A stretch of 64,000 nt of DNA, from the NCBI GenBank assembly GCA_013336225.1, contig JAAXUC010000001.1:99949-163948 (forward strand). The letters are read 5' to 3'. Position numbers and translations under genes: made by a program. The DNA is from Candidatus Moraniibacteriota bacterium (GTDB taxonomy: Bacteria; Patescibacteriota; Minisyncoccia; Moranbacterales; GWC2-37-73). The notes under the pieces were generated by a model, which saw only the letters and a list, made by a program, of their open reading frames with translations, was not told where the DNA came from and did not search any database. This document shows positions 6,128-59,388 of this stretch, piece by piece (position 1 is the stretch's first letter; each line of letters begins with the position of its first letter).

Positions 6128-9100
6128 ATGGTCAAAGAAAAGAAAGCCCTGAAGGTGAAGGAGACGTATGCCTCAACTTCCTCTCTGTCGAAGAGAAAGT
6201 TTTTCAAAAAACAATTGATGGTGTCATTGCCGAACCTTATTGAAGGTCAAATTGATGCATATCAATGGTTTTTGGATCGAGGATTGCGCGAACTGTTTGA
6301 TGAAATCAATCCAATCAGTGATTTTACTGGAAAAGACTTGGAGCTTTCCCTGACTGACTATTATCTTGACGAACCCAAGACAGACGAGCAAACAGCCAAG
6401 AACAAAAATGTTTCCTATGAAGCGCCTCTTCGAGCAAAGGCGCGCTTAACGATCAAAAAAACTGGTGAAATCAAGGAGCAAGAAATTTATCTGGGAGATT
6501 TTCCAGTGATGACACCTCGCGGAACATTCATCATTAATGGTGTTGAACGTGTGGTTGTTTCTCAGTTGATCCGATCTTCTGGAGTCTTCTTCACCATGGA
6601 ATATTCCAAAGGAAAGAAATTGTTTGGAGCAAAATTGATTCCAAATCGTGGAGCATGGCTTGAGATTGACACTGATTTGTCAGGAGTTTTGAATGTGCGC
6701 ATCGACCGAAAACGAAAAATCCCAGTGACCGCACTTTTGCGTGCCTTCGGAATGGAGAAAAACGAAGAAATTCTGAAAGCTTTTGATGGTTTTGACAATG
6801 GCGAAGTGAAATTCATCGACGAATCACTTGCAAAAGACATCACCAAAAGTCAGGCTGAAGGATATAAGGAAATTTACAAAAGAATTCGTCCAGGCGATTT
6901 GGCTACAGCAGAAAATGCCAAGCAATTGGTGAATGGGATGTTTTTCAACTTTGAAAAATATGATTTCGGCTCAGTTGGACGTTATCGTTTGAATCAACGT
7001 TTGAACATTGAACTTGAAGATAAGGAAGAAAACAGAATTTTGCTAGTTTCTGATTTGCTTTTGATCATCAATGAAATCATTCGTCTTAACAATGATCCAC
7101 ATGCAATTGCTGATGATATCGATCATCTTGGAAACAGACGAGTTAGGGGTGTTGGCGAATTGGTGCAAAACAAACTTCGCATCGGTATGGCTCGCATGGC
7201 TCGCAACATCAAAGATCGCATGAGTACTTGCGACCTTGAAACAGTTGTTCCAGGACAATTGATCAACTCTCGTCCAGTGGCTGCTGCAATCAAAGAATTT
7301 TTCTCAAGTTCACAACTTTCACAATTCATGGATCAAGTGAATCCGTTGGCTGAACTTGAACACAAAAGACGACTCTCAGCGATGGGACCAGGAGGACTTA
7401 CTCGCGAGCGAGCAGGCTTTGAAGTTCGAGATGTGCATCATTCACATTATGGACGTATTTGTCCGATTGAAACTCCTGAAGGTCCAAACATTGGTTTGGT
7501 GGGACATATGGCTTCATATGCTCGCATTAATGATTTTGGATTCTTGGAAACACCATATATCAAGCTGCACAAAGAAGTTCCCAACACTGTGGAAGCTTTG
7601 ACAAACCGAGTTTTGAACGAAGAGGTGGCTGGGGGAAAAATCGGTGAATATATTACTGTTGAATTGGCCAAGAAAATTGCCAAAACTTCAGCTAAAATCA
7701 TTCAAATCAAACCATACATTTCTGATGATATTGAATATGTTAACGCAACCGTTGAAGACAGATGCGTTATTACGCATGCTCGTGTGAACACTGATGAGCA
7801 CCGCAACATTGTGGATGCAACAGTGGAAGCTCGCGTGAAAGGACATCCTGAAATGATTGAAACTGAAAAACTTGATTATATCGATGTTAGTGCTAAGCAA
7901 TGTATCTCAGTTGCAACTTCACTTATTCCTTTCTTGGAGCATGATGATGCCAACCGAGCTTTGATGGGTTCAAACATGCAACGACAAGCTGTGCCTTGTA
8001 TCGTGCCGCAAGCTCCTTTTGTGGGAACTGGTATCGAAGACAAAGCCGCTGGAGATTCTGGACAAGTTGTGCTTGCAATGAACGATGGAGAAGTGGTTGA
8101 AGTTGATGGAGCGCACATTACAGTCAAAGAGCTGGCACCAATCGGAGCAAAGAAAGACAATTTCAAACGAGAATATCGCTTGCAAAGTTTCCAGAAATCA
8201 AATGCCTTCACTTCCATGAGTCAACTTCCACGAGTGGAAAAAGGACAAATGGTGAAGAAAGGTGATCTTTTAGCTGATGGAGCTGCAACCGAAAATGGAG
8301 AATTGGCACTTGGACAAAATCCATTGGTGGCCTTTATTCCATGGGACGGATATAACTTTGAAGATGCGATCATCCTTTCAGAAAGACTTTTGAAAGAAGA
8401 TTGGTATTCTTCTATTCATATTGAAGACTTTTCAATCGACGTGCGCGACACAAAGCTTGGGCCGGAGGTTGTGACTCGCGACATTCCAAACATTGGAGAA
8501 GAAAGACTTAAGAATCTTGATGAAACTGGAATCATCCGCATTGGAGCAGAAGTTTCTTCAGGAGACATTCTTTGTGGAAAAATCACACCGAAAGGTGAAG
8601 GAGATTTGACTCCAGAAGAAAGATTGCTCCGCGCAATCTTTGGTGAAAAATCTAAAGATGTGAAAGATTCATCATTGTATCTTCCACATGGAGAACATGG
8701 AAAAGTTGTGGACATCAAAATTCTTTCACGAGAACAAGGTGACAAACTTTCAACTGGTGTGATCAAGCAGATTCAAGTTTCAGTGGCGCAGCTTCGCAAA
8801 GTTTCCGTGGGAGACAAATTGGCTGGACGACATGGAAACAAAGGTGTGATCTCACGTATCGCTCCTGTTGAAGATATGCCATATCTTCCAGATGGAACTC
8901 CAATCGATGTGATCCTAAATCCATTGGGAGTTATCTCTCGTATGAATATTGGACAGATTTTGGAAACTCATCTTGGATGGGCAGCTATGAAACTTGGTTA
9001 TAAAGCAGCCACTCCAGCGTTGGATGGTATTACTGAAGAAGATATCAAAGGCGAACTTCGCGCAGCTGGACTTCCTGAAAGTGGAAAGATTCGTTTGATT

Positions 9101-25174: not shown

Positions 25175-25204
25175 TGCTGTTGTTTGTGTTATCTTTTTTA
25201 TTCT

Positions 25205-25230
25205 GGATCCCGGATCAAGTCCGGGACGAC
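25205..25230. repeat. Solo copy of the CCGGA-TCAAG-TCCGG hairpin repeat (same family as the argS and ileS-upstream elements)
   Basis: GGATCCCGGATCAAGTCCGGGACGAC, nearly identical to GATTCCGGATCAAGTCCGGAATGAC at 45723-45747. Confidence 0.5.
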
Positions 25231-25442
25231 ATTGCTATGTCGATTTCTTAACGCTCATCACTTACATTTTACCTACGCACTTCGCAATGTGTTCATAAAA
25301 TCCAAAACCCCATTGTATTTTGTATATTGCATTTTGTATGTTGAAGCTAGCCTTGTGCATTTTCAAATAACCCTGTAAAATAGGGCAAGTGTCAGAAAAG
25401 ACATTCTTTTACTAACAAATTAAGTATTAATATAAATATCCT

Positions 25443-26947: not shown

Positions 26948-29848
26948 ATGGAAAATAATAGGATAATCATCAAAGGTGCGCGAGAGCACAATTTGAAAAA
27001 TATTGATCTAGAGTTGCCCCGAGACAAATTTATTGTCTTTACGGGTCTTTCAGGCTCTGGAAAATCAACTTTGGCGTTTGATACGATTTTTGCCGAAGGG
27101 CAAAGGAGATATTTGGAAAGTTTGTCGAGTTATGCGCGGCAGTTTTTGGGGCAAATGGACAAGCCTGATGTTGACTATATTGAAGGACTTTCACCAGCCA
27201 TTTCGATTGACCAAAAATCAACTTCGCACAATCCGCGCTCAACAGTTGGAACAGTGACGGAGGTGCATGATTATTTGCGACTGCTGTATGCGAAAATTGG
27301 AATTCCTCATTGCAGTGTTTGCAATCGTGAAATTTCCAAGCTTTCCACGGATGAAATTGTGGATAGGATTTTGGAGATGGGAGAAAAAAACAAATCGCAA
27401 GCAATTGAGATTTCTTCGCCGATTGTCAGGGAAAGAAAAGGGGAATATTTAGCACTGCTGGATGAAATGTGGAAGAAGGGATTTTCTGAGGCGCTGGTGA
27501 ATGGAAAACTTATTCGCCTGGAAGATTTTAAGGAAATAAAATTGGAGCGTTACAAAAAGCATAGTATCGATATTATTGTTGATAAAATTGAGGTTAATGA
27601 AGAAAATCTTTCTAGAATTTTTGAAGGAGTGGAGAAAGCGCTGCGACTTTCAAAGGGGATTGTGAAAGTGAAATGCGTGCAAGAAGCTAAGGGTCAAAAG
27701 CTAAAAGCTAAAAGCTCAGACTCATTTGAGGTTGAGCAGATTTTCAATCAGAATTTGTCATGTCCGATTCATGATGTGGAATTTCCTGAAATGGAGCCGC
27801 GACTTTTTTCTTTCAATTCTCCCTATGGCGCTTGCGAAGCTTGTGAAGGCTTGGGGCTTAAAAAGGAAATTGATCCTTTGCGCGTGATGCCAGACTTAAA
27901 CAAAACCATTGGCGAGGGAGGTATCATGCCATGGAGCTTCAAACCGAACAATTATCAAGGCACAGTGCTGAAAGCGGTGGCCGCATATTATAATATTCAA
28001 GACAACAAGCGCCTGCGAGATCTGTCGAAAGATAAGCTGGATATTTTGATGTATGGCACAGAGGATGAGGATTTAATCAAGGTTTCATATCATTTCAAAA
28101 GCGGTAGTGGGCATTATAATGTGCGCTGGAAAGGCGTGGTGGCATGGCTACAGGAAAGATATCGCACCACAACTTCAGATGCTGTGCGCACGGATATTGA
28201 AAAATATATGTCGCAAAAACCTTGCTCTGCTTGCAAAGGTAGTCGCTATAAGAGTGATGTGCTTTTGGTGAGCGTGGGCGAAAAGAATATCTATGAAATT
28301 TCGACGCTGAGTATTTGGCAAGGCATTGATTTTTTCAAGAATTTGAAATTGACACATCGCGAGGATTTGATTGCGGGCAGGATTTTAAAGGAAATCATTG
28401 CGCGCATGGTTTTTTTGAACAATGTTGGTTTGGATTATCTGACTTTGGGCAGAGCAGCTTATTCTCTTTCAGGCGGAGAATCGCAACGCATTCGCTTGGC
28501 TTCGCAAATCGGATCGCAATTGGTGGGCGTGCTGTATATCTTAGATGAACCATCCATTGGACTTCATGCGCGTGATAATGCCAAACTCATTGAAACCCTT
28601 AAGCATCTGCAAAAGATCGGGAACACTTTGATCGTGATCGAGCATGATGAAGAGATGATGCGCGCTGCTGATTGGTTGGTGGATATTGGACCAGGAGCAG
28701 GCAAACATGGCGGCGAAGTGGTGGCTGAAGGCTGTCCTGAGGATGTGATCAATAACCCAAAATCGCTGACTGGAAAATATTTGCGTCATGAACTGGAAAT
28801 TGAGGTTCCAAATTTTCGTAGGCAAATAAAAAGAAAAAGAAGCATCACAGTGCGTGGAGCCAGTGAACATAATCTTAAAAATGTGACAGTGGAATTTCCA
28901 CTAAAAGTTTTCACCTGCGTGACTGGAGTTTCTGGCTCTGGAAAATCAACTTTGGTTGAAGAAACTTTGTATAAAGCGTTGGCCAATAAGTTGCATCGCG
29001 CCCTGGATGTGCCAGCCAGGCATAATGAAATTATCGGCATTGAAAATATCAACAAGGTGATCATGATCGATCAATCTCCAATTGGTCGCACGCCGCGCAG
29101 CAATCCTGCAACATACACAGGATTATTCACGCACATCCGAGAACTTTTTGCGCAAACCAAAGATGCCAAAATGCGCGGCTATGGGCCAGGCAGATTTTCA
29201 TTCAATGTGGCAGGTGGGCGCTGTGACAACTGCAGTGGTGAGGGATATCTTAAAATTGAAATGCAATTCATGCCTGATGTGTATTTGCCATGCGATGTTT
29301 GCAAAAGCAAACGTTACAACAGTGAGACACTGCAAGTTAAATATAAAGGAAAAAATATTTCACAGGTATTGGCCATGACAGTTTCAGAAGGAGTTGAATT
29401 TTTTGGAGCATTTTCCAAGATTCATGAACCGCTGAAAGTCTTGGAAGAAGTTGGCCTTGGCTATATTGAGTTGGGACAAAGTGCCACCACTCTTTCTGGC
29501 GGCGAAGCGCAGCGCATCAAGCTCGCCTCTGAGCTTTCAAGGCGCGCCACTGGTGACACTTTATACATCTTGGATGAACCAACCACTGGACTTCATTTTG
29601 ATGACATTAAAAAATTGTTGGTAGTGCTTAATCGCTTGGTTGATGCTGGAAACACAGTGGTGGTGATTGAGCATAATATGGATGTGATAAAAACAGCTGA
29701 TTGGATTATTGATATGGGGCCAGAAGGTGGCGACGGTGGCGGAAAAGTTGTGGTGACTGGCCCACCAGAGGAAATCATTAAATATTATAAAGAAAGTCAC
29801 ACGGCTAAATATTTGCGACAAGTTTTGAAACCGAAAAGCCTAACTTAA
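26948..29848 (+). CDS. uvrA: Excinuclease ABC subunit A
   Basis: 966 aa; two ABC ATPase modules (GLSGSGKST twice, LSGGE signature twice) and Zn-finger Cys pairs; contains an in-frame AAGCTAAAAGCT repeat (27688-27715). Confidence 0.95.
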
Positions 29849-30788: not shown

Positions 30789-32063
30789 ATGTCAAAAGTA
30801 GCCGAGAAAATCAAGAATTTGCCACTGGCGCCTGGCGTGTATTTTTTTTGTGATTCAAAAGGCAAAATCTTGTATATTGGCAAGGCGACAAACTTAAAAA
30901 CTCGCGTGCAGTCATATTTTCGCAGTGACATTGCGTCCTCGCGAAGTCAGTGGATTGCTCAGATGATTGCGCAAGTGGCAAGCATAGATTTTGAACAAAC
31001 AGACTCAGTTCTTGAGGCTTTGATTTTGGAGAGTAATTTGATCAAGAAACATCAGCCAAAATATAACACCTTGGAAAAGGATGATAAATCTTTTTCATAT
31101 TTCGTAATTACTAAAGAAGATTTTCCAAAATTTTTGATTCTTAGAAAAACCGATATTGATCTTGAAAAGCTAGAAGCTAAAAGTTATAAGCTAAAAGCTA
31201 TCTATGGTCCTTACATTTCCAAGCAGCAGATGCAAACTGCGCTTAAGATTATTCGCAGAATTTTTCCATTTCATAGTGGCAAACAAAAAACTGAAAAAGG
31301 TTGTTTGGATTTTCAAATCAGTCTTTGTCCTGGGCCATATGCTGGGGCAATTTCCAAGATTGATTATAAAAAAAATATTCGTGGGATCGAAATGATTTTG
31401 CAGGGCAAGAAAAAAAGTTTGGTTTCAAAATTGGAAAAAGAGATGTTGTTGCATTCAAAGAAAAACGAATTTGAAAAAGCGGCTATCTTGAGAAATAAGA
31501 TTTTTGCACTTAATCATATTCGCGATGTGGCACTGATGTCGCGAGACTTTGAAGAAAAGTCATTAGTCATCGGTCATCAGTCATTCGGCCTGCGCATTGA
31601 GGCGTATGACATCTCAAACATTTCCGGAGAGCACGCAGTTGGCTCAATGATTGTTTTTGAGAATGGTCAGGCGAATAAAAATCAATATCGAAAATTCAAA
31701 ATTAAAACCGTGGAAGGTTCAAATGATGTGGCAATGATGAAAGAAGTTTTGTCGCGGCGTTTCAATAATGATTGGGCAATGCCAGATTTAATCTTATTGG
31801 ATGGCGGGCTTGGACATTTGAACATGGCAGAGGAATTGTTGCATCAGGAATTGGGATTAGTAGTCGCAATTGTTGGTGTGGCAAAAGGACCAACAAGAAA
31901 GAAGCTTGATCTTAGACGTGATAGCAGGTTGCGAGCAGATATGAATAAACGGATGGAAAATATCTTGGAAAATGAGAATCTCATGAAATCTATCATGGAT
32001 GAAGCGCATCGTTTTGCAATTGGATACCATAGAAAATTGAGAAGTAAGAGCTTCTTGGGATAG
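30789..32063 (+). CDS. uvrC: UvrC-like excinuclease (GIY-YIG + RNase H-like endonuclease domains, lacks C-terminal HhH)
   Basis: GIY-YIG N-terminus (GVYFFCDSKGKILYIGKATNLKTRVQSYF), the UvrC endonuclease block IEAYDISNISGEHAVGSMIVFENGQ. At 424 aa it is shorter than the canonical roughly 600 aa. Contains in-frame AAGCTAAAAGCT and GTCAT repeats. Confidence 0.75.
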   Translation: MSKVAEKIKNLPLAPGVYFFCDSKGKILYIGKATNLKTRVQSYFRSDIASSRSQWIAQMIAQVASIDFEQTDSVLEALILESNLIKKHQPKYNTLEKDDKSFSYFVITKEDFPKFLILRKTDIDLEKLEAKSYKLKAIYGPYISKQQMQTALKIIRRIFPFHSGKQKTEKGCLDFQISLCPGPYAGAISKIDYKKNIRGIEMILQGKKKSLVSKLEKEMLLHSKKNEFEKAAILRNKIFALNHIRDVALMSRDFEEKSLVIGHQSFGLRIEAYDISNISGEHAVGSMIVFENGQANKNQYRKFKIKTVEGSNDVAMMKEVLSRRFNNDWAMPDLILLDGGLGHLNMAEELLHQELGLVVAIVGVAKGPTRKKLDLRRDSRLRADMNKRMENILENENLMKSIMDEAHRFAIGYHRKLRSKSFLG

Positions 32064-32379: not shown

Positions 32380-35172
32380 ATGGCTTCAAAAAAAATAGCA
32401 TCATCCAATAACAATGAAATCGTAATCAAGGGTGCGCGCGTGAACAATCTTAAGAATATTGATGTGAACATCCCGCGAGATAAATTCGTGGTGATCACTG
32501 GACTTTCAGGCTCAGGAAAATCTTCTTTGGCATTCGATACTATTTACGCGGAAGGCAATCGTCGCTATATGGAGGGACTTTCTTCATACGCTCGCAACTT
32601 TTTGGATCCATCAGTGAAGCCTGACGTGGACAAAATTGAAAATCTTTCGCCGCCAATTTCAATTGATCAAAAAAGTATTTCACGTTCGCCGCGCTCAACG
32701 GTGGGAACATTAACGGAAGTTTATGACTATTTGCGCATCATGTATGCAAAAGTCGGAATTTTGCATTGTCCTGAGTGTGGGACTTCCATGCAAAAAAGAA
32801 GCAATCAAGAAATCTTGGATGAAATTTTGACTTTTTCTCATCACACTCAAATTGCAATCTTGGCAAAGCCGAAAGAAGCTGCGGTTGGCAAGGAGCTTTT
32901 AAAGCACATTGCACAAATGGGATATGCCCGCGTGCGTTTCAATGGAAAAATGTTCACCGTGGCAGAAGCCATGATGCTTGAAGAAAATGAAATTGAAACT
33001 GATGTTGAGATGGTTATTGACCGAGTTATTTTGGACAAGAAAAAACCTGATACAGAAAGAATGTTGGATAGTGTGGAAACTGCCATGAAAATCGGTGGAA
33101 ATTCAATGAAAATTTTGTTCGACAATGTGGAAGAGCGCGGATATAATCAGGATTTCTTTTGCAGTGAGTGTGGAGTGAAAATAAAAGAGGTGACGCCAAG
33201 ACACTTTTCTTTTAATAGTCCTGAAGGAGCATGTGATACTTGCGCTGGTTTGGGTTACACCTTGAAAGTAAATGAGGAATTGATCATCCCTAATAAAAAT
33301 CTCTCTTTAATGGAGGGTGCCATTCAACCCTGGAGCAAATCTGGCGGAAAAATAAACGGGCAAAGTGCCGCGCTTTTGACTTTGAAAAATGTGGCCAAGA
33401 AATATAAATTTTCCATGAATGTACCAGTAAAGAAATTCACTGCGGTGCAACTGGGAATTGTTTTGTATGGCAATGAGGGATTTGAAGGTGTGATTCCTGC
33501 TCTTGAGAAAAAATATCAAGAAACGAAATCTGATTATGTGCGCAGTGAAATTGAAAAATATATGACCGCGCATACTTGTCCGACTTGCGATGGCAAGCGT
33601 CTCAAAAAAGAATTCTTGGCAGTAGAAGTTCAGGGAAAAACAATTGACATGATGGTTTCAATGAGCGTCACGCATTTGCGAGAACTGTTTGAAGATGCTG
33701 AAAATTGGACACAAACTCAGCAAGAAAAAAGCATTGCCAAATCAATTGTGCGAGAAATTTTGCAACGCTTGGGTGCACTGGAAAATGTTGGTTTGGAATA
33801 TTTGAATTTGGGTCGCTCTGCTCAGACAATTTCTGGAGGAGAAGCGCAGCGCATTCGCTTGGCTGCACAACTCAATTCTCAATTGATGGGAATTGTCTAT
33901 GTTTTGGATGAGCCATCAATCGGGCTTCATAGTAGAGATACGGAAAAACTTATCAACACGATTAAGGCCCTGCAGGGCGTTGGAAATTCACTAATTGTGG
34001 TTGAGCATGATGAAAGCATCATCAGAGCTGCTGATTGGATTGTGGATATGGGTCCTGGTGCTGGAGAAGAAGGTGGAATTGTGGTTTTTGAAGGTGACTA
34101 CAAAAAATTAATGAAGTCTAAAAATCTTACCGCTCAGTATATTTCAAAAAAGAAAAAAGTTTCTGACAAGAAAAAAAATCGCACTGGCAGTGGAAAATTT
34201 ATTGAAATTATTGGAGCTGAAGAAAACAACTTGAAAAAAATCGACGTTTCAATTCCATTGGATAAATTTGTGGTTATTTGTGGTGTTTCAGGCAGTGGGA
34301 AATCAACATTAGTAAAGAATATTTTAGCTAAAGCACTATCTCGGCATTTTTATAATACCAAGGATTTGCCAGGCAAGCACACTAAAATCAAAGGATTTGA
34401 ACATGTTAAAAAAGTCATCAGCATCAATCAAAATCCAATCGGACGCACGCCGCGCTCAAATGCTGCAACATATACTGGAGTGTTTTCTCATATTCGCGAC
34501 TTGTTTGCCGGAGTGGAAGAAGCTAAGAATAGGAACTATACTGCCAGCCGCTTCAGTTTCAATATGAAAGGCGGACGCTGCGAAGTTTGTCAGGGAGAAG
34601 GATCAAAAAAAATTGAAATGCATTTGTTGCCTGACATGTATGTGAAATGCGAAGCTTGTGACGGAACCAGGTTTGGCAAGAAAACTTTAGAGATTGAATA
34701 TAAAGGATTTAATGTGGCACAGATTCTGGATATGGATGTGCGTTTGGCACTACGCTTTTTTGCTCGTCACCCACTCATTGCTGAAAAACTTAAGACCATG
34801 GAGGATGTGGGCTTGGGTTATCTCAAGCTTGGACAAAGTGCAACTAATCTTTCTGGTGGAGAGGCGCAGCGCATCAAACTGGCCACCGAGCTTGCACGCA
34901 AATCAACTGGAAACACTTTATATATTCTGGATGAACCAACGGCGGGGCTGCACTTTGATGATATCCGAAAATTGCTTTTAGTTTTAAATGCATTGGTTGA
35001 CAAGGGAAACACGGTGATTGTGGTTGAACACAATCTGGATGTGATTCGCGACGCTGATCATGTCATTGAGCTTGGGCCAGATGGCGGTGAGCTTGGAGGA
35101 CATCTGACTTTCGCTGGCACACCAGACCAATTGAAGAAGGATAAGAAGAGTTGGACGGCAAAATACCTCTAA
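32380..35172 (+). CDS. Second full-length UvrA paralog
   Basis: 930 aa with the same domain order as uvrA at 26948 (GLSGSGKSS, two LSGGE signatures, Zn-finger cysteines), but clearly diverged sequence. Confidence 0.9.
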
Positions 35173-37007: not shown

Positions 37008-37754
37008 ATGAAATCAACAAAAGTTTCCGCTCAAGGCGGATCCGCCTTGAGCGGAAAAGAAAAAATAAAAAAAATCACATATTGGGCGGGTGTTTCCGCA
37101 ATTGGAATTGTGGTGGGCTTTTCACTGCAATTCACCAAGGCCTGGACTGAACCAACTGCTCCTGCACCAGGTGGAAATGTGGGCGCACCGATAACCACAG
37201 GCCTTCTTGATCAAGTTAAGAATGGCGGCTTGGCAGTTTCCAATGGAATCGTGACTTCATTTTTAGGTGTGAATGGAAACGTCACATTTTCTGGGGTTGG
37301 AAATGGGATGGTGTTTCCAGATGGAACAAAGCAGACAACTGCTGCAGCAGCACAAGCTGGTGACAATTTGGGGAATCACACTGCAACTGCACCTCTTAAT
37401 ATGAACGGAAAATCAATCAATGGTGTTGATGTTGTTAGTGCTACAACTTTGAATGCAACTCAAATGACAATTAATTACAACGGTAAAATTTTGGCTTCAC
37501 AATTAGTCAATATTAATGGGAGTGAGGATGTTTATAGCACATCGGTGGAAATGAGCTGGGCACTTGGCAATACCACTTCTGATACTTGTAATGGAGATTT
37601 TACTACTAATTACGGATGTGCACTTTCTGATAATAAGACATGTATTGACACAAGCACAACGTATGTTCTTGTGAAAGGAGAGCCTTCTCCTAGATATTGG
37701 AGAAGAAACATTACTTGTAAGGTTGCAACGGCTCTTAATTTTGTTCAGCAATAA
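37008..37754 (+). CDS. Secreted/surface protein, paralog family A (conserved N-terminal anchor and C-terminal Cys-rich module, variable middle)
   Basis: Shares WAGVSAIGIVVGFSLQFTKAWTEPT...GNVGAPI...VSNGIVTS...FPDGTKQTTAA and the C-terminal TCNGD...C...TC pattern with the 40084 gene. Confidence 0.5.
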   Translation: MKSTKVSAQGGSALSGKEKIKKITYWAGVSAIGIVVGFSLQFTKAWTEPTAPAPGGNVGAPITTGLLDQVKNGGLAVSNGIVTSFLGVNGNVTFSGVGNGMVFPDGTKQTTAAAAQAGDNLGNHTATAPLNMNGKSINGVDVVSATTLNATQMTINYNGKILASQLVNINGSEDVYSTSVEMSWALGNTTSDTCNGDFTTNYGCALSDNKTCIDTSTTYVLVKGEPSPRYWRRNITCKVATALNFVQQ

Positions 37755-40083: not shown

Positions 40084-40671
40084 ATGAATCTTAAATCAAC
40101 CAACATGAAAACAAAACTAAAGGAAGCAATCTATTGGGTGGGGGTTTCCGCAATTGGAATCGTAATCGGCTTCTCACTGCAATTCACCAAAGCTTGGTCT
40201 GAGCCAACAACTTCTGCTCCAAATGGAAACGTGGGCGCACCAATTAACACCAGCATCATTGATCAAGTCAAAAGCGGAGGAATGGTGGTATCTAATGGAA
40301 TTGTAACTTCAGTTCTCGGAGCCACCAAGATAACGGCTGGCACTGGAGGAGTCGCTTTTCCAGACGGAACAGTTCAAACCACTGCTTCTGCCCCAAGTCT
40401 TGGTGTATGTAATAAATCATACGTAAATGGATCGGAGGATAAATATTCCTCATGGATCGGTGTACGTTTCTGGGCACCTACTTTTACATGGACAGGGACG
40501 CGTTTGGATACTTGCAATGGTGATGTTGGCAATGCATACACCTGTAGTTTGACGGAGACGCGAACATGCAATGATGTCCAAGGATTCACTTATTACAAAG
40601 ATTATTGGAGGAGTTATAATTATCGGACTGTTACATGCGTGAAGCAATATGTTTGCAGTTACACAGAGTGA
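40084..40671 (+). CDS. Secreted/surface protein, paralog family A (second copy)
   Basis: IYWVGVSAIGIVIGFSLQFTKAWSEPT...GNVGAPI...VSNGIVTS...FPDGTVQTTAS and C-terminal DTCNGD..YTC..TRTC..C..C. Confidence 0.5.
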   Translation: MNLKSTNMKTKLKEAIYWVGVSAIGIVIGFSLQFTKAWSEPTTSAPNGNVGAPINTSIIDQVKSGGMVVSNGIVTSVLGATKITAGTGGVAFPDGTVQTTASAPSLGVCNKSYVNGSEDKYSSWIGVRFWAPTFTWTGTRLDTCNGDVGNAYTCSLTETRTCNDVQGFTYYKDYWRSYNYRTVTCVKQYVCSYTE

Positions 40672-42623: not shown

Positions 42624-44288
42624 ATGAAAGAATCAATTCAAAAACTTATATCCAAAGCTGTTTTAGCGGCAAAAAAGGCTCATTCTTGGGCTGATTTTGA
42701 GATGCCAGAAATAACAGTGGATTATCCCAAGAGTGAACAATTTGGCGATTATACGACCAACATTGCCCTTATTTTGGCTAAAAAAGCTGGGAAAAGCCCG
42801 ATGGAAACGGCAAATTATCTCAAAGAGATTATTTGTCATCCTGAACTTGTTTCAGGATCCCGCAAGGTTACTAATGGCGAGCAAAGCACAGAGATCCTGA
42901 AACAAGTTCAGGATGACATGGCGGGGATTTTTGAAAAAATTGAAGTGGCGGCGCCGGGATATTTGAATTTCCATCTTTCCCAGCAATATTTGCAAGATTT
43001 GACGAAAAAAATCAATATTGAAAAAAACAGTTTTGGAAATTCGCAGATTGGAAAAGATGTTAAAATCAATAATGAATTTATTTCCGCCAATCCGACTGGG
43101 CCGCTGCATCTTGGAAATGGTCGCGGTGGATTTTATGGCGACTCACTTACGAGGGTTTTTAGAAAAGCTGGATTTGAAGTTACTAATGAATATTATGTGA
43201 ATGATGCTGGCGGACAAGTTGAAAAACTTGGACACAGTGTGCTTAAAGATGAGGAAGCTGCCTACATAGGAGAATATATCGATGACTTGAATGTGAAATA
43301 TGCAGAGCTTGGCGATGTGCGAAAAGTTGGTCAACTGGCGGCCAAGGAAGTTTTGGAAAATATCATCAAGAAAACTGCCAAGGAAAAAATGCAGATTGTT
43401 TTTGACGTGTGGATGAGCGAACAAAAATTGAGCGATGATGGATATGATCAGCGTGCAATTGAAATGCTCAAAGAAAAAAAAATGACCTATGAATCAGAAG
43501 GAGCACTGTGGCTGCGAACAACTGATTTTGGCGATGATAAAGACAGGGTGCTGATCAAGAAAGACGGTAAAAATGCCTATATGGCTGGCGATTGTGGATA
43601 TATGCTGAATAAGATTGAAAGAGGCTATTCTCGCTTGGTGATGGGGCTGGGAGCTGATCATCACGGTTATGTTTCGCGGCTGAAGGCAGTGGCTTTGGCG
43701 CTTGGTTTTGCAGGAGATTTTCGAATCATCATTTCTCAGATGGTGCGGTTGGTGAAAGATGGAAAGGAAGCTCGCATGAGCAAACGCGCTGGCAACGTAA
43801 TTAATTTGGATGATCTGATTGATGAGATTGGGCATGATGTGACTAGATTTTTCTTCTTGATGTATTCTCCGGACACGCACATGAATTTTGATTTAGGATT
43901 GGCAAAAGAACGCAGCGCCAAGAATCCAGTTTTCTATGTGCAATATGCGCATGCACGCATTTGCAGTATCCTGGAAAAAGCTGAGCATGGAACAGAAAAT
44001 GCAAAACTCGAATTATTGGTTCATGAAAAAGAATTGAGCTTAATCAGGGAGCTCAACAAATTTCCAGAATTGATTGAAACAATTGCTGAAAATTATGAAG
44101 TGCATAAACTGCCACAATATGCCATGAAATTGGCTGACAAATTCCATTCTTTTTATGATGCTTGTCGGGTGATTGACGAAGAAAATCCGCAGCTGACAAA
44201 TGCTAGACTTTTCTTGATAAATGCTGTTAGAATAGTGCTAGCTGAGACCCTGGGCCTTATTGGGGTGGATGCGCCAGAAAAAATGTAA
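42624..44288 (+). CDS. argS: Arginyl-tRNA synthetase
   Basis: N-terminal Arg_tRNA_synt_N domain, a HIGH-like region (ANPTGPLHLGNGRGG), a KMSKS-like block (RMSKRAG), and the anticodon-binding DALR domain. Carries an in-frame 83-bp palindromic insertion at 42835-42917. Confidence 0.9.
   Translation: MKESIQKLISKAVLAAKKAHSWADFEMPEITVDYPKSEQFGDYTTNIALILAKKAGKSPMETANYLKEIICHPELVSGSRKVTNGEQSTEILKQVQDDMAGIFEKIEVAAPGYLNFHLSQQYLQDLTKKINIEKNSFGNSQIGKDVKINNEFISANPTGPLHLGNGRGGFYGDSLTRVFRKAGFEVTNEYYVNDAGGQVEKLGHSVLKDEEAAYIGEYIDDLNVKYAELGDVRKVGQLAAKEVLENIIKKTAKEKMQIVFDVWMSEQKLSDDGYDQRAIEMLKEKKMTYESEGALWLRTTDFGDDKDRVLIKKDGKNAYMAGDCGYMLNKIERGYSRLVMGLGADHHGYVSRLKAVALALGFAGDFRIIISQMVRLVKDGKEARMSKRAGNVINLDDLIDEIGHDVTRFFFLMYSPDTHMNFDLGLAKERSAKNPVFYVQYAHARICSILEKAEHGTENAKLELLVHEKELSLIRELNKFPELIETIAENYEVHKLPQYAMKLADKFHSFYDACRVIDEENPQLTNARLFLINAVRIVLAETLGLIGVDAPEKM
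42835..42917 (+). mobile_element. 83-bp miniature palindromic element with perfect 25-bp terminal inverted repeats, inserted in-frame in argS
   Basis: GTCATCCTGAACTTGTTTCAGGATC at 42835-42859 and its exact reverse complement at 42893-42917 flank a 33-bp spacer. Each arm is itself a hairpin (CCTGAA-cttgt-TTCAGG). It corresponds to an extra roughly 28 aa relative to canonical ArgS. Confidence 0.75.
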
Positions 44289-45623: not shown

Positions 45624-45691
45624 GAATAAGATAGGAATATAAAAGCATTGAAGGAGTCATCACTCCTGAGCTGCGAAAAGAAACGACTGCT

Positions 45692-45747
45692 GTCGTCCTG
45701 AACTTGTTTCAGGATCTACGTAGATTCCGGATCAAGTCCGGAATGAC
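45692..45747. repeat. 56-bp near-perfect palindrome related to the argS element (left arm GTCGTCCTGAACTTGTTTCAGGATC, centre TACGTA, right arm GATTCCGGATCAAGTCCGGAATGAC)
   Basis: Left arm differs from the argS copy at 1 position. The right arm carries several substitutions that preserve the hairpin (CCGGA-tcaag-TCCGG). Confidence 0.6.
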
Positions 45748-45874
45748 ATGCAATCAGAGTAGAATTCGTCGGGTAAGCCCGTTATAGCCAAAAAACAAGG
45801 GTAGAATGTATAATGTAGAATGTATGACGTATGAAAATACATAATACATAATACTAAATACATGATACTGAAGC

Positions 45875-45888
45875 AAGGTGGTACCACG
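45875..45888 (+). promoter_or_regulatory. T-box-like conserved sequence AAGGTGGTACCACG about 60 nt upstream of ileS (candidate T-box leader)
   Basis: 12 of 14 matches to the T-box consensus AGGGUGGNACCGCG; the UGGU would pair with the ACCA end of a tRNA with discriminator A (tRNA-Ile). Confidence 0.25.
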
Positions 45889-45949
45889 TTTTACGACGTC
45901 CTTATGCATTTATTTGCATGGGGATTTTATTTTATAATTTTAAAAATAT

Positions 45950-49298: not shown

Positions 49299-49421
49299 CG
49301 AACGTAGTGAGCGAAATGATTTGTCAGCAGACAAAATCATTTCCGTCCGCCAGCTGGCGGAGAGTGATGATAACAAATTGGTTTAATACCTTGCGGCTTG
49401 CCCCGGGGTTAATACCTGTTT
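49299..49421 (+). repeat. About 120-bp repeat element, copy a (13-bp stem hairpin GAAATGATTTGTC-agcag-GACAAAATCATTTC and GGTTTAATACC units), immediately upstream of recO
   Basis: Shares GAGCGAAATGATTTGTCAGCAGACAAaaTCATTTCCG and GGTTTAATACCT with 50272-50400; a diverged reverse-oriented relative lies at 62575-62640. Confidence 0.6.
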
Positions 49422-52510: not shown

Positions 52511-52596
52511 TGACTTTTAATTATACGAATTAATATATTTATTCATAACAAGTATGGAATCATACGCAATATATGGTTTTGAAAAAGGTAAGTAAT

Positions 52597-52715
52597 GTTT
52601 TTGATTTGCCTATTTCCTCTTGAGAGCACGCTTCGCAGCCGAAATCTATGGCTGCTCACTCGGACCTCGCTGTCGCTCGCTACGGCTTCAAGAGAAAATA
52701 GGCAAATCAAAAACC
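52597..52715 (+). repeat. About 115-nt palindromic element, copy 2 (outer stem sequence differs from copy 1 but remains complementary)
   Basis: GTTTTTGATTTGCCTATTTCCTCTTGA...core...TCAAGAGAAAATAGGCAAATCAAAAAC. Confidence 0.7.
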
Positions 52716-52764
52716 ACATATTGCGCTTGATCCTAAGTATGCTGGACTTAATTGAAATTTGGTT

Positions 52765-52770
52765 TATAAT
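52765..52770 (+). promoter_or_regulatory. TATAAT -10 box 8 nt upstream of the tgt ATG (leaderless-type promoter)
   Basis: GGTTTATAATgggacgatATG. Confidence 0.4.
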
Positions 52771-52778
52771 GGGACGAT

Positions 52779-53897
52779 ATGTTTACATTGATTTCACAGC
52801 AACAAAAGAAGCGCATTGGATTGCTTAAAACTAAAAACGGTGTAATTAATACGCCGTTTTTCATGCCGATTGCAACTAAGGGCGCGGTAAAAAATGTTTC
52901 TCCTGAAGATTTGCTGGCTTTGGGCGCGGAAATTGTGCTGGGAAACACTTATCATCTTTGGCTCAGGCCAGGAGATGATCTTATTGCGCGGGCAGGTGGA
53001 CTCCATAAATTCATGCATTGGAGTGGACCAATTTTGACTGATTCTGGTGGTTATCAAGTTTTTTCACTTGGCGCGCGAGCCAAAGAAAAATATGGGACCA
53101 ATGGCGTCAAACTTAGTGAGCAAGGAGTTGATTTTGCTGATCCCTTAAATGGCAGCCGACATTTCATGTCGCCGGAAAAATCAATTGACATTCAACTTAA
53201 TCTTGGTTCTGACATGATCATGGTGCTGGATGAATGTCCGCCATATCCATGCTCACACAGTGCTGCCAAAAAATCACTGGAACTCACCACGCGTTGGGCT
53301 GCTCGCTGCCTGACTTATTTTCAAGAAAAAACCAAGCATCTTTCCAGGGAAAACCGTCCCTTGCTTTTCGCGATTGTGCAGGGAAGTGTCTATGAAGATT
53401 TGCGAAAAGAATCAGCCAAGCAATTGACTGCCATGGATTTCGATGGTTTTGCAATTGGCGGTGTGGCAGTGGGCGAACCTAGAAAACATCTCTATGAAAT
53501 TTTGCAGTGGGTGGTGCCCTTTTTGCCTGCTGACAAACCGCGCTATTTGATGGGACTTGGAAAACCTGAAGAATTAGTGGCAGCTGTTGAGGCTGGAATG
53601 GATATGTTTGATTGTGTCATTCCCACGAGAGAAGGTAGGCACGGAAGACTTTTTGTTTGGAAAGAGGGGAACAATTTGAGTGGAGATTTTTATGAAACAA
53701 TAAATATCAATAATGAACAATTCAGGGAAGACTTCACACCGATAGACTCAAATTGTGATTGCTATGCTTGCAAAAACTTCACCAAAGCTTATCTCAATCA
53801 TTTGCTCAGAACAAATGAGCCATTCTTTCTGAAGCTTGCTTCAGTGCATAATTTGAATTTCTATCTGAAATTGATGAAATTGCTCGGCGAAAAATGA
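52779..53897 (+). CDS. tgt: Queuine tRNA-ribosyltransferase
   Basis: GVINTPFFMPIATKGAVK, LGNTYHL, DSGGYQ, and Zn site CDCYAC...H. Confidence 0.9.
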   Translation: MFTLISQQQKKRIGLLKTKNGVINTPFFMPIATKGAVKNVSPEDLLALGAEIVLGNTYHLWLRPGDDLIARAGGLHKFMHWSGPILTDSGGYQVFSLGARAKEKYGTNGVKLSEQGVDFADPLNGSRHFMSPEKSIDIQLNLGSDMIMVLDECPPYPCSHSAAKKSLELTTRWAARCLTYFQEKTKHLSRENRPLLFAIVQGSVYEDLRKESAKQLTAMDFDGFAIGGVAVGEPRKHLYEILQWVVPFLPADKPRYLMGLGKPEELVAAVEAGMDMFDCVIPTREGRHGRLFVWKEGNNLSGDFYETININNEQFREDFTPIDSNCDCYACKNFTKAYLNHLLRTNEPFFLKLASVHNLNFYLKLMKLLGEK

Positions 53898-54379: not shown

Positions 54380-54409
54380 TATGTATAATACTGGATCATG
54401 TGCAATATT

Positions 54410-54527
54410 TTTTTTGTTTCACCTGTTTTTTCTTGAAGCCGTAGCGAACGACAGTGAGGTCCGAGTGAGCAGCCATGAATTTCGGCTGCGAAACGTGCTC
54501 TCAAGAGAAAACAGGTGAAACAAAAAA
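54410..54527 (-). repeat. About 115-nt palindromic element, copy 3 (reverse orientation)
   Basis: Reverse complement matches the copy 1/2 core (GAGAGCACGTTTCGCAGCCGAAATTCATGGCTGCTCACTCGGACCTCACTGTCGTTCGCTACGGCTTCAAGA). Confidence 0.7.
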
Positions 54528-54777
54528 ATCCTTCTTTTGCTCCTGGAATATTATATTGCGAGTGACCCACAATACCTGGTTCTTCTGATTTACTCATCTC
54601 CTTTTTTGGCACATTTTTGACTGAAAATCATAGTCAAAAAACTTACTCGCTCTCGCTGCGTAGGTCCTAAAAAGAAAATAAGCAAATCAGAAGGCATCAA
54701 TCTTGCTTTAAGTGTATTTGCAAAAAAAGCTTATTTTAGGTATTATTGATTCATAAGTCTTATGGATATTACATCTT

Positions 54778-59270: not shown

Positions 59271-59388
59271 ATTTTTGTTTCACCTGCTTTCTCTTGAGAG
59301 CACGCTTCACAGCTGAAATCTATGGCTGTTCGCTCGGACCTCGCTGTCGCTCGCTACGGCTTCAAGAAAAAACAGGCGAAACAAAAAT
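59271..59388 (+). repeat. About 115-nt palindromic element, copy 4 (carries a compensatory double change in the internal hairpin: GCAGCC/GGCTGC to ACAGCT/GGCTGT)
   Basis: ATTTTTGTTTCACCTGCTTTCTCTTGAGAGCACGCTTCACAGCTGAAATCTATGGCTGTTCGCTCGGACC...CGCTACGGCTTCAAGAAAAAACAGGCGAAACAAAAATG. Confidence 0.7.

What the first reader, a model, noticed from the sequence alone, without database searches (positions are those of the whole stretch)
42835..42917. Perfect-TIR 83-bp palindromic element inserted in-frame inside argS
Two exact 25-bp inverted repeats (GTCATCCTGAACTTGTTTCAGGATC and its reverse complement) flank a 33-bp spacer, and the ArgS reading frame continues straight through them. Compared with canonical ArgS (E. 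coli has only DLNGI between the LAEQVLTHL-like and KVEIAGPGF-like blocks), this copy has about 28 extra residues, CHPELVSGSRKVTNGEQSTEILKQVQDDMAGIF, that coincide with the element. Each arm is itself a hairpin. Close relatives sit in intergenic DNA at 45692-45747 and 25205-25230. This resembles Rickettsia palindromic elements, which insert in-frame into protein genes, but the sequence family looks different and the host is CPR-like. The proposal is a miniature mobile palindromic element that is tolerated inside an essential aminoacyl-tRNA synthetase.
Basis: partly seen in the sequence, partly recalled or inferred. Interest (0 to 1): 0.8.

Follow-up and report, generated by a model that had tools for sequence, protein, structure and literature searches.

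The report
Known hairpin repeat inside argS
An 85-bp pair of inverted hairpin repeats sits in-frame inside the arginyl-tRNA synthetase gene of a Moranbacteria (CPR) genome; it is real and adds about 28 residues, but it belongs to an already described, pan-bacterial repeat class (CGTC-tagged REPs, the hairpins bound by Ssn GIY-YIG nucleases), so it is a new example and not a new kind of element.

Summary
Window 42834-42918 is a perfect 26-nt inverted repeat with a 33-nt spacer, read through in-frame by a genuine argS. The nearest orthologs (75-79% identity) lack it. Each arm is TGTC + 8-bp stem (ATCCTGAA/TTCAGGAT) + 5-nt loop + short tail. That is the published definition of a CGTC-2 REP, arranged here as a tags-outward (HH) homodimer (Di Nocera 2013, PMC3733652). 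The same superfamily includes Rickettsia RPE-4 and RPE-6 and is already known to sit in-frame in genes, including tRNA synthetases. The exact 23-mer occurs across many phyla. I found that the identical unit flanks small GIY-YIG nuclease genes on both sides (51 of 80 loci, against about 0.02% expected). That reproduces the published Ssn/NTS association (Chenal 2025, PMC11893778). The closest named nucleases are from CPR genomes. What is new: a CPR host; this ArgS loop carries inserts in 35 of 120 orthologs, from at least five hairpin-repeat families; a second copy sits inside a stem of the ileS T-box leader; and this subfamily fails the published SRM search motif. Mobility is inferred from presence/absence between relatives and is not demonstrated. 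No Ssn gene lies in the 142 kb of Moranbacteria DNA examined. Verdict: real, but a new member of a known kind, of modest interest.

The parts
42624..44288 (+). argS (arginine--tRNA ligase), 554 aa, the host gene; 100% identical to a protein annotated in a Candidatus Moranbacteria MAG
   Evidence: ORF; Pfam N-terminal, catalytic and DALR domains; PDB ArgRS hits; P0001 100% identity; AF2 pLDDT 91.4 and ArgRS fold
42834..42918 (.). Whole element: tags-outward (HH) homodimer of two CGTC-2-type REP units, 85 bp, translated as residues ~71-99 (CHPELVSGSRKVTNGEQSTEILKQVQDDM)
   Evidence: Perfect 26-nt inverted repeat; absent from the nearest orthologs; folds as a 26-bp duplex
42834..42861 (+). Left REP unit: tag TGTC (42834-42837), stem ATCCTGAA (42838-42845), loop CTTGT (42846-42850), stem TTCAGGAT (42851-42858), tail CCC (42859-42861); read as CHPELVSGS
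   Evidence: Sequence; hairpin I7; matches the CGTC-2 definition read; a Sulfurovum CGTC-2 unit encodes RHSELVSGS
42860..42892 (.). 33-nt spacer between the two inverted-repeat arms (it overlaps the 3-nt tails of both units). The first part, together with the preceding C at 42859 (CCCGCAAGGTTAC), is homologous to the spacer of the ortholog insert in L001
   Evidence: 33 nt is typical (median tags-outward spacer 32, IQR 20.5-44.5)
42890..42918 (-). Right REP unit, the same sequence on the minus strand (tag TGTC, stem-loop ATCCTGAACTTGTTTCAGGAT, tail CTC); read on the plus strand as ILKQVQDD
45691..45748 (.). Second copy: tags-outward heterodimer (left TGTC|GTCCTGAA CTTGT TTCAGGAT, right unit stem ATTCCGGA/TCCGGAAT, 8-nt palindromic spacer CTACGTAG) inserted in the ileS T-box leader
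   Evidence: relatives L002 and L004 have only a tiny hairpin at this position
45639..45906 (+). ileS T-box leader (below the Rfam gathering score) that hosts the second copy in the apical part of an internal stem
   Evidence: Rfam T-box 47.3 bits, E = 1.6e-9 in the window; 64.1 bits, E = 1e-13 in the empty-site relative L002
25204..25231 (-). Single CGTC-type unit (TGTC|GTCCCGGA CTTGA TCCGGGAT|CCA) about 30 nt downstream of the uvrB-like ORF that ends at 25174
   Evidence: ORF list

Best explanation
The 85-bp feature is a tags-outward (HH) homodimer of CGTC-2-type repetitive palindromic (REP) units. This is the hairpin-repeat class also described as NTS or Ssn-related motifs. It landed in, or was copied into, the loop between the last helix and the last strand of the ArgS N-terminal domain. 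It survives there because, in this register, both units lie in a stop-free reading frame and the net gain is 28 codons. The protein therefore carries a tolerated excursion instead of being broken.

Shown: the anatomy (tag, 8-bp stem, 5-nt loop, tail, tags-outward dimer); absence of the insert from the nearest orthologs; DNA-level identity of the unit across divergent argS genes; further copies in non-coding DNA of the same window; and the fact that the identical unit brackets small GIY-YIG (Ssn-type) nuclease genes, whose closest named relatives are from CPR genomes.

From the literature: Ssn proteins bind such hairpins only as single-stranded DNA and cut a few nucleotides upstream of the tag.

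Inferred: in a tags-outward dimer each strand carries one correctly oriented unit at its 5' side. An Ssn-type nuclease would then nick just outside the dimer on either strand whenever the DNA is single-stranded, for example during replication. That would allow excision and reinsertion or copying of the dimer, by analogy with IS200/IS605 and RAYT-REPIN systems. The ArgS loop appears as a hotspot mainly because it tolerates extra residues, so insertions there are not purged.
For: Anatomy: against the definitions read. Peptide match to a listed CGTC-2 intragenic unit (RHSELVSGS). Insert absent in P0003-P0008 and most other orthologs. Inserts at the same loop in 35 of 120 orthologs, all of which are hairpin repeats in the eight insert-bearing genes read at the DNA level (window, P0002, P0009, P0021, P0026, P0033, P0069, P0074), from at least 5 families and scattered on the ArgS tree. 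Unit 25/25 identical in L127 and L128 argS against 69-71% gene identity. Exact 23-mer in at least 120 genome stretches from many phyla, 16 of them Patescibacteria including a Moraniibacteriota MAG. Tags-outward pairs dominate (63 HH, 15 TT, 17 tandem), median spacer 32. Only frames CHPELVSGS, VILNLFQD and ILKQVQDD are stop-free, and the 13 of 145 units read through by long ORFs use CHPELVSGS or ILKQVQDD (with one other frame, GPETSSGRQ, at L008). Ssn association: units within 150 nt on both sides of 51 of 80 GIY-YIG loci, tags outward (51/58 upstream, 57/62 downstream), against a background of 0.084 units/kb; the argS arm is one of the two most common flanking units (15 instances, tied with ATGCTGAACTTGTTTCAGCAT). 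GIY-YIG Pfam match. CPR origin of the named relatives. Published Ssn biochemistry and NTS-ssnA-NTS architecture. Fold preserved around a lower-confidence insert.
Against: Transposition by Ssn has never been demonstrated. The 2025 paper shows ssDNA cleavage and an effect on natural transformation, and only hypothesises an IS-like origin. The window's units do not match the published SRM search motif. No Ssn-like gene was found in the window plus 78 kb of related Moranbacteria loci, though that is only about a tenth of a genome. The window and L001 inserts are both exactly 85 nt and share the left arm and left spacer, which suggests one older insertion. In that case the perfect 26/26 arm complementarity in the window needs a homogenising process (arm-to-arm conversion or replacement) that I have not shown. 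The neighbour-joining tree used to argue for multiple gains is rough. Whether the segment is actually translated, and whether the mRNA duplex is processed, is untested.
Confidence: 0.75

Rival explanations
1. The repeats are no longer mobile and were never moved by Ssn. In this reading the units are old, domesticated genome furniture, for example recognition sites for an ssDNA restriction or transformation-control nuclease as in Neisseria. They spread and stay similar by recombination, gene conversion or template switching between copies, and the argS copy is an old relic.
For: The only demonstrated Ssn function is ssDNA cleavage that modulates transformation. Di Nocera et al. found no dedicated transposase for CGTC REPs. 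The window and L001 inserts have the same length and share their left half, consistent with an older shared insertion. No Ssn gene was found in 142 kb of Moranbacteria DNA.
Against: Presence/absence differs between genomes whose ArgS proteins are 75-79% identical, at two independent sites (argS and the T-box leader). At least five unrelated repeat families occupy the same loop in different lineages. The nuclease gene sits inside a tags-outward dimer with IS-like architecture. Many Ssn genes lie on very short contigs, as multi-copy sequences do.
Confidence: 0.25
2. It is a REPIN in the strict sense: a REP doublet mobilised in trans by a RAYT (REP-associated HUH tyrosine transposase).
For: The architecture is the same: two inverted REP units with a short spacer, an unpaired tag next to the hairpin, and no target-site duplication.
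Against: The tag is TGTC/CGTC, not GTAG. RAYT genes are reported not to be flanked by CGTC units. No Y1 transposase lies in the window, and no recurrent transposase appears near units in 120 loci. The unit flanks GIY-YIG genes instead.
Confidence: 0.07
3. It is a classical MITE whose 26-bp arms are terminal inverted repeats bound by a DDE transposase.
For: Perfect terminal inverted repeats and small size.
Against: There is no target-site duplication (flanks ...GATTATT | ... | TGGCGGG). Single units occur alone (25204-25231; P0069). The two arms of a dimer can be different units. Spacers vary freely between copies. No DDE transposase is seen.
Confidence: 0.04
4. The segment is a lineage-specific protein insertion kept for an ArgS function, and its palindromic DNA is incidental. 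Alternatively, it is an assembly artefact.
For: The insert is in-frame in an essential gene and AF2 predicts some helix in it. The protein is recorded from a single contig.
Against: The nearest relatives lack it. The same DNA unit occurs in non-coding DNA and across phyla. Identity is at the DNA level, 25/25 against 69-71% background. Equivalent inserts occur in many independent assemblies, for example P0021, which the collection index lists in 62 blocks and of which 24 carrying contigs were read.
Confidence: 0.03

Closest known systems
CGTC-tagged REPs, family CGTC-2 (Di Nocera, De Gregorio & Rocco 2013, BMC Genomics 14:522, PMC3733652)
   Same: An unpaired 4-nt tag (the TGTC variant is explicitly listed), an 8-bp stem beginning A-T, a 5-nt loop, a short tail, predominantly tags-outward (HH) dimers with 20-100 nt spacers, occasional intragenic in-frame copies encoding 20-30 residues, tRNA synthetase genes among the hosts, and no RAYT association. 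A listed CGTC-2 unit encodes RHSELVSGS; the unit here encodes CHPELVSGS.
   Different: The host phylum (Patescibacteria) is not among the five phyla listed in 2013. The tails are CCC and CTC, not the CCA consensus. The argS copy is a perfect homodimer, whereas heterodimers predominate in CGTC-2 (10 of 63 tags-outward pairs were homodimers in my sample).
NTS / Ssn-related motifs and Ssn GIY-YIG ssDNA nucleases (Chenal et al. 2025, Nat Commun 16:2388, PMC11893778)
   Same: An oriented hairpin repeat with a conserved GTC-containing upstream tag that brackets small single-domain GIY-YIG genes on both sides. I reproduced that arrangement for the exact argS arm.
   Different: The window's units fail the published degenerate SRM pattern. 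They are an AT-richer subfamily with a CTTGT/CTTGA loop. No ssn gene was seen in the DNA available for this lineage. NTS are reported to be rarely intragenic (2% in N. meningitidis).
Rickettsia palindromic elements (RPE), especially RPE-4 and RPE-6
   Same: Palindromic repeats inserted in-frame into housekeeping protein genes and tolerated. RPE-4 and RPE-6 are classed as CGTC-4 and CGTC-1 REPs, the same superfamily.
   Different: A different family within the superfamily (8-bp stem and 5-nt loop with different stem and loop sequences), and a different host (a free-living or epibiotic CPR bacterium, not an obligate intracellular alphaproteobacterium). RPE-1 is a longer, unrelated element.
REPINs and RAYTs (Bertels & Rainey 2011)
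   Same: Works alike on paper: two inverted REP hairpins with a spacer form the mobilisable unit, and the cognate single-copy nuclease or transposase gene is itself flanked by the repeats.
   Different: GTAG tag versus TGTC/CGTC. The partner there is a HUH tyrosine transposase, here a GIY-YIG nuclease. REPIN sequences are lineage-specific, whereas this 23-mer is identical across phyla.

Membership tests
CGTC-tagged REP, family CGTC-2 (PMC3733652) | Unpaired terminal tag CGTC (TGTC or CCTC variants allowed) at one end of the hairpin | tested here: met
   All five units in the window carry TGTC immediately 5' of the stem; definition read
CGTC-tagged REP, family CGTC-2 (PMC3733652) | 8-bp stem with complementary A-T in the first and second positions | tested here: met
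   ATCCTGAA/TTCAGGAT in both argS units; ATTCCGGA/TCCGGAAT in the right unit of the T-box copy. Two units start G-T (GTCCTGAA, GTCCCGGA), which is a wobble at the first pair
CGTC-tagged REP, family CGTC-2 (PMC3733652) | 5-nt loop (distinguishes family 2 from family 1, which has a 4-nt loop) | tested here: met
   CTTGT or CTTGA in all five units
CGTC-tagged REP, family CGTC-2 (PMC3733652) | 3-nt unpaired tail, consensus CCA | tested here: inconclusive
   Tails are CCC and CTC (argS), CTA and CTA (T-box copy) and CCA (single unit at 25204). A tail is present, but the consensus is matched only once
CGTC-tagged REP, family CGTC-2 (PMC3733652) | Mostly tags-outward (HH) dimers with spacers of about 20-100 nt | tested here: met
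   The argS copy has tags outward and a 33-nt spacer. Across 120 loci: 63 HH, 15 TT, 17 tandem, median HH spacer 32. HH definition read
CGTC-tagged REP, family CGTC-2 (PMC3733652) | Dispersed multi-copy family within the genome | tested here: inconclusive
   Five units at three loci in 64 kb. The rest of the roughly 1-Mb genome is not available
Ssn-related motif (SRM/NTS) (PMC11893778) | Matches the degenerate search sequence HGTCWYN(0-2)YYVSBRHN(0-5)WNVSBRGN(0-2)RNCYNB | tested here: not met
   None of the five units matches and there are 0 matches in the window; the canonical NTS control does match
Ssn-related motif (SRM/NTS) (PMC11893778) | Flanks genes for small single-domain GIY-YIG (cd10448-type) proteins on both sides | tested here: met
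   For the identical unit in other contigs: 58 of 80 upstream, 62 of 80 downstream, 51 of 80 on both sides, tags outward, against an expected 0.013 per flank; Pfam GIY-YIG. Not shown for this genome
Ssn-related motif (SRM/NTS) (PMC11893778) | A cognate ssn gene is present in the same genome | tested here: inconclusive
   No tblastn hit at E below 0.01 in the window plus 78 kb of Moranbacteria loci. The closest named Ssn relatives are from other CPR lineages, Levybacteria and Microgenomates
Ssn-related motif (SRM/NTS) (PMC11893778) | Bound as ssDNA and cleaved a few nucleotides upstream of the tag by the cognate Ssn | not testable with these tools
   Needs biochemistry; published for Neisseria and Wolbachia homologs only
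Rickettsia palindromic elements (RPE) | Palindromic repeat inserted in-frame in protein-coding genes, absent from orthologs | tested here: met
Rickettsia palindromic elements (RPE) | Sequence membership in a named RPE family (RPE-1 to RPE-8) | not tested
   No RPE sequences were compared here. By the literature, RPE-4 is CGTC-4 (9-bp stem) and RPE-6 is CGTC-1 (4-nt loop), so an 8-bp stem with a 5-nt loop places this unit in neither
REPIN / RAYT system | GTAG tag next to the hairpin | tested here: not met
   The tag is TGTC
REPIN / RAYT system | A RAYT (Y1 HUH transposase) gene flanked by the repeats | tested here: inconclusive
   No transposase among the window's ORFs. None recurs near units in 120 loci. 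The literature reports none flanked by CGTC units
Classical MITE | Terminal inverted repeats plus a target-site duplication | tested here: not met
   No direct repeat flanks the argS element or the tags-outward dimers listed

The most novel reading that the evidence does not exclude
In Patescibacteria, the Ssn-associated hairpin dimers are currently active mobile elements, and the ArgS N-domain loop is a targeted insertion site and not merely a tolerant one. The empty site in the nearest relatives reads AGTCATCAGTCATCGG, which contains the tag-plus-stem start GTCATC twice. That could act as a tag mimic that attracts an Ssn nick. If so, this locus would be a natural, repeatedly hit reporter for the still undemonstrated transposition activity of a 90-100-aa GIY-YIG nuclease, and a route by which small genomes acquire new peptide segments in essential proteins.
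Probability: 0.12. Interest if true: 0.65.

Novelty: new member of a known kind. Interest (0 to 1): 0.35.

Why it matters
The finding extends a known phenomenon, palindromic REP units surviving in-frame inside housekeeping genes, to the reduced genomes of CPR bacteria. One loop of an essential aminoacyl-tRNA synthetase has been hit or retained repeatedly by at least five different hairpin-repeat families, and a structured RNA leader (the ileS T-box) has absorbed the same element in a stem. The work also shows that the published SRM search pattern misses a very widespread AT-richer subfamily, even though that subfamily is bracketed to Ssn-type nuclease genes just as strongly. There is a practical consequence as well. 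These units generate recurrent pseudo-conserved peptides (CHPELVSGS, ILKQVQDD, VILNLFQD) that can mislead annotation and alignment of CPR proteins.

Tried and rejected
- Rfam: at gathering thresholds only two tRNAs matched. A permissive scan of the element gave only generic long-hairpin (miRNA-precursor-like) hits below threshold, so no RNA family applies.
- Literature search for the literal DNA and peptide strings found nothing.
- I tried to fetch E. coli rayT as a tblastn probe from NC_000913 250-258 kb, but the gene is not in that stretch. I dropped this and clustered ORFs instead.
- All-against-all clustering of 1,294 ORFs from 120 unit-bearing loci found no recurrent transposase. The intervals between long-spacer tags-outward pairs hold ordinary genes.
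- The small GIY-YIG ORF enclosed by units in L121 looked like a new discovery, but it is the published Ssn/NTS association. I keep it as independent confirmation and not as a novelty.
- I considered that the shared peptide in other ArgS orthologs might be protein-level conservation. I rejected this on DNA identity.
- MITE and RAYT-REPIN readings were considered and rejected on tag, target-site duplication and flanking-gene evidence.
- A viral-contig scan found the unit on 29 contigs. That is too few, and too ambiguous (prophage or host flanks), to argue for phage-borne spread.
Full report
**1. What is in the sequence**

Window 42834-42918 holds a perfect inverted repeat. The two arms are 26 nt each (TGTCATCCTGAACTTGTTTCAGGATC and its reverse complement) and are separated by 33 nt. 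Each arm is itself a hairpin, with an 8-bp stem ATCCTGAA/TTCAGGAT and a 5-nt loop (I7 and I8). A search for the 25-mer with up to 3 mismatches finds three sites, against none in 100 shuffles. As a single strand the region folds into a 26-bp duplex. The RNA minimum free energy is -51.9 kcal/mol (z = -8.7) and the DNA value is -30.1 kcal/mol (z = -10.3).

The ORF 42624-44288 runs straight through the element. It is a genuine arginyl-tRNA synthetase:
- Pfam finds the N-terminal, catalytic and DALR domains, and the N-domain match breaks off at residue 76, where the element starts.
- Solved ArgRS structures match with E down to 1.4e-81.
- The protein is 100% identical to one annotated in a Candidatus Moranbacteria MAG.

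**2. It is an insertion relative to orthologs**

I aligned 120 Moranbacteria-type ArgS sequences. Most are 526-546 aa long and have only 6-11 residues at this loop. That includes the nearest relatives, P0003-P0008, at 75-79% identity. At the DNA level the syntenic locus L002 reads ...ATCAGTCATCAGTCATCGGAAAATGGC... where the window has the 85-bp element.

The AF2 model is confident overall (pLDDT 91.4, pTM 0.91). Residues ~72-99 form a lower-confidence excursion (block means 75, 61 and 78) between helix 59-71 and strand 103-109, and both of those remain well formed. The model superposes on ArgRS crystal structures with TM about 0.76.

**3. Other copies, and covariation**

The window has five units of the same design:
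- the two in argS;
- a dimer at 45691-45748, whose left unit differs by one base and whose right unit has the stem ATTCCGGA/TCCGGAAT;
- a single unit at 25204-25231, with stem GTCCCGGA/TCCGGGAT, about 30 nt downstream of uvrB.

The stems differ by compensatory changes, while the TGTC tag and the CTTGT/CTTGA loop are kept.

The 45691-45748 dimer lies inside the ileS T-box leader. Rfam T-box scores 47 bits (E = 1.6e-9) in the window and 64 bits in the relative L002, both below the gathering score. The dimer replaces the tip of an internal stem, which in relatives is a tiny hairpin. An extra hairpin is likely to be harmless at that position.

**4. The same ArgS loop is a hotspot**

Thirty-five of the 120 orthologs carry at least 6 extra residues at this loop. 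I read the DNA of eight insert-bearing genes, counting the window and the P0002 ortholog (L001), and every insert is a hairpin repeat.

| Ortholog | Insert at the loop |
|---|---|
| P0002 | An 85-nt dimer at the same codon as the window; homologous left unit and left spacer; right unit of the TCCGGA type |
| P0033 | The same CGTC-2 unit (25/25 identical), about six codons further downstream, with a decayed partner |
| P0069 | A single unit |
| P0009, P0021 | TGTC...GACA dimers with other stems |
| P0026, P0074 | Unrelated G+C-rich hairpin repeats |

On a rough neighbour-joining tree the insert-bearing sequences are scattered among empty ones. This implies several independent gains or losses and at least five repeat families.

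Two further ArgS sites also collect repeat-like inserts: after residues ~22-28 and after residue 455.

Outside the insert, argS DNA identity to the window is 69-80%, yet the unit is 25/25 identical in L127 and L128. The recurring peptide therefore reflects DNA-element identity and not protein conservation.

**5. The unit is pan-bacterial**

The hits include Sphingomonadales and other Alphaproteobacteria, Bacteroidota, Treponema, Gammaproteobacteria, Campylobacterota, Elusimicrobia, Firmicutes and Melainabacteria. Sixteen are Patescibacteria loci, one of them a Moraniibacteriota MAG.

The common architecture is two units with tags pointing outward and a variable spacer. Adjacent pairs split into 63 tags-outward, 15 tags-inward and 17 tandem. 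The median tags-outward spacer is 32 nt, and only 10 of 63 are homodimers.

About 9% of exact units (13 of 145) are read through by long ORFs, in several phyla. Twelve of the 13 use CHPELVSGS or ILKQVQDD; one, at L008, is spanned in another frame (GPETSSGRQ). Read directly from the sequence, CHPELVSGS and VILNLFQD are stop-free on one strand and ILKQVQDD on the other. The remaining frames hit TGA.

**6. Comparison with what is known**

Di Nocera et al. 2013 (PMC3733652) defined CGTC-tagged REPs by these features:
- an unpaired CGTC tag, with TGTC or CCTC as variants;
- an 8- or 9-bp stem starting A-T;
- a 4- or 5-nt loop;
- a 3-nt tail of roughly CCA;
- mostly HH dimers, meaning tags outside, with 20-100 nt spacers;
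- intragenic copies that encode 20-30 residues, including copies in tRNA synthetase genes;
- no associated transposase.

Family CGTC-2 has an 8-bp stem and a 5-nt loop, which is exactly the window's unit. The paper's supplement lists a Sulfurovum CGTC-2 unit encoding RHSELVSGS. Rickettsia RPE-6 and RPE-4 are CGTC-1 and CGTC-4. The element is therefore a member of an already described class, and it belongs to the same superfamily as those two RPEs.

**7. The partner nuclease**

I looked for a mobilising enzyme. There is no transposase in the window, and none recurs near units in 120 loci.

One locus, L121, had a 97-aa GIY-YIG ORF enclosed exactly by a tags-outward pair. I fetched 80 metagenomic loci encoding relatives of that ORF and counted flanking units.

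| Measure | Result |
|---|---|
| Unit within 150 nt upstream | 58 of 80 loci |
| Unit within 150 nt downstream | 62 of 80 loci |
| Unit on both sides | 51 of 80 loci |
| Nearest upstream unit on the + strand | 51 of 58 |
| Nearest downstream unit on the - strand | 57 of 62 |
| Median gap to the ORF | 24 nt upstream, 18 nt downstream |
| Background density | 0.084 units/kb (expected 0.013 per flank) |

The argS arm, ATCCTGAACTTGTTTCAGGAT, is one of the two most common flanking units (15 instances, tied with ATGCTGAACTTGTTTCAGCAT).

This association is already published. Chenal et al. 2025 (PMC11893778) showed that such proteins (Ssn, cd10448) are site-specific single-stranded DNA nucleases. They bind NTS/SRM hairpins and cut a few nucleotides upstream of the tag. 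NTS-ssnA-NTS resembles an insertion sequence, but transposition was only hypothesised.

I can add two points:
- The window's units fail the published SRM pattern, so this AT-richer subfamily would have been missed by that search.
- The closest named relatives of the nuclease flanked by this unit are from CPR genomes, Levybacteria and Microgenomates.

No ssn gene lies in the 142 kb of Moranbacteria DNA I hold.

**8. How it most likely works**

*Shown:* the anatomy, the insertion status, the DNA-level identity, and the bracketing of Ssn genes.

*From the literature:* strand- and orientation-specific ssDNA cleavage just upstream of the tag.

*Inferred:* in a tags-outward dimer each strand presents one correctly oriented unit at its 5' side. 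An Ssn-type enzyme would then nick immediately outside the dimer on either strand when the DNA is single-stranded. That would allow excision and reinsertion or copying, as in IS200/IS605 or RAYT-REPIN systems. The argS copy persists because the register leaves both units in open frames, the net gain is 28 codons, and the loop tolerates extra residues.

The main rival (confidence about 0.25) is that the repeats are domesticated recognition sites that spread by recombination, with the argS copy an older relic. The equal length (85 nt) and shared left half of the window and L001 inserts point that way. If that is right, the perfect arm complementarity would need arm-to-arm homogenisation.

**9. 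Verdict**

However, the element is a new member of a known kind. The additions are modest: a CPR host, a multi-family hotspot in one ArgS loop, a copy inside a T-box stem, and a subfamily outside the published SRM motif. Interest 0.35.

Noticed in passing
window 52597-52714, 54409-54528, 54582-54693, 59271-59388: A second, unrelated repeat family: elements of about 118 nt with 27-28-nt terminal inverted repeats (TTTTTGATTTGCCTATTTCCTCTTGA...) and a 64-nt core (56 nt in the more divergent 54582 copy). There are four intergenic copies, and one has its core inverted relative to the others. It looks MITE-like. A spurious 77-aa ORF (52595-52828) is read from one copy.
   Followed up: partly
window 45639-45906 (especially 45650-45675): The ileS T-box leader scores below the Rfam gathering threshold because Stem I is reduced to a short hairpin (GGAGU-CAUCA-CUCC) whose loop contains the Ile codon AUC. 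This resembles the 'ultrashort Stem I' ileS T-boxes that I recall from Actinobacteria. Relatives L002 and L004 share the design.
   Followed up: partly
window 37024-37057: A perfect 34-bp palindrome (TTTCCGCTCAAGGCGGA|TCCGCCTTGAGCGGAAA) lies at the 5' end of ORF 37008-37754, where it would encode VSAQGGSALSGK. The paralogous ORF 40084-40671 lacks it. This may be another in-frame or start-proximal palindromic insertion.
   Followed up: no
window 49336-49371; L001 about 8240-8260: The palindrome ATCATTTCCGTCCGCCAGCTGGCGGAGAGTGATGAT sits in the annotated N-terminus of the recO ORF, where the Pfam RecO_N match only starts at residue 46, so the palindrome is probably upstream of the true start. The same TCCGCCAGCTGGCGGA core appears inside the T-box leader of relative L001.
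   Followed up: no
ArgS orthologs, alignment positions after window residues ~22-28 and 455 (P0026, P0035, P0102, P0104, P0116; P0033, P0036, P0058): Two further in-frame insertion hotspots in ArgS. The first holds one to three copies of 7-aa units (PASSADK, PAFPADK, KATTGKPDFA). The second holds 38-40-aa segments (...CEGVITRSN...ILAMT) that look like dimers of another GTCAT-type hairpin.
   Followed up: partly
window 26948-29848 and 32380-35172; 30789-32063: There are two uvrA-like genes (966 and 930 aa) within 8 kb, separated by two unknown ORFs and a short uvrC (424 aa; GIY-YIG, UVR and RNase H-like domains, but no C-terminal HhH region).
   Followed up: no
L211-L239 (IMG/VR contigs): The exact 23-mer unit occurs on 29 viral or proviral contig stretches, a few with 2-3 copies. 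I did not check whether these are phage genomes proper or host flanks.
   Followed up: no
P0121-P0240 (Ssn-like proteins): Many of these 86-100-aa GIY-YIG genes are recorded only on contigs of 0.5-2 kb. That is what one expects if the REP-ssn-REP unit is multi-copy and breaks assemblies.
   Followed up: no
L001 5001-6719 (P0002), residues ~29-40: The closest insert-bearing ortholog has an additional 12-aa in-frame insertion (ARNASRIEAGGP) near the N-terminus that the window's ArgS lacks.
   Followed up: no
L121 (CAZPZA010000093.1): This 3.7-kb contig is binned as 'uncultured Gammaproteobacteria', but it carries an Ssn gene 94% identical to one on a pilin-rich, low-GC, CPR-like contig (L131), and the nearest named relatives are Levybacteria. 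It is probably mis-binned.
   Followed up: partly
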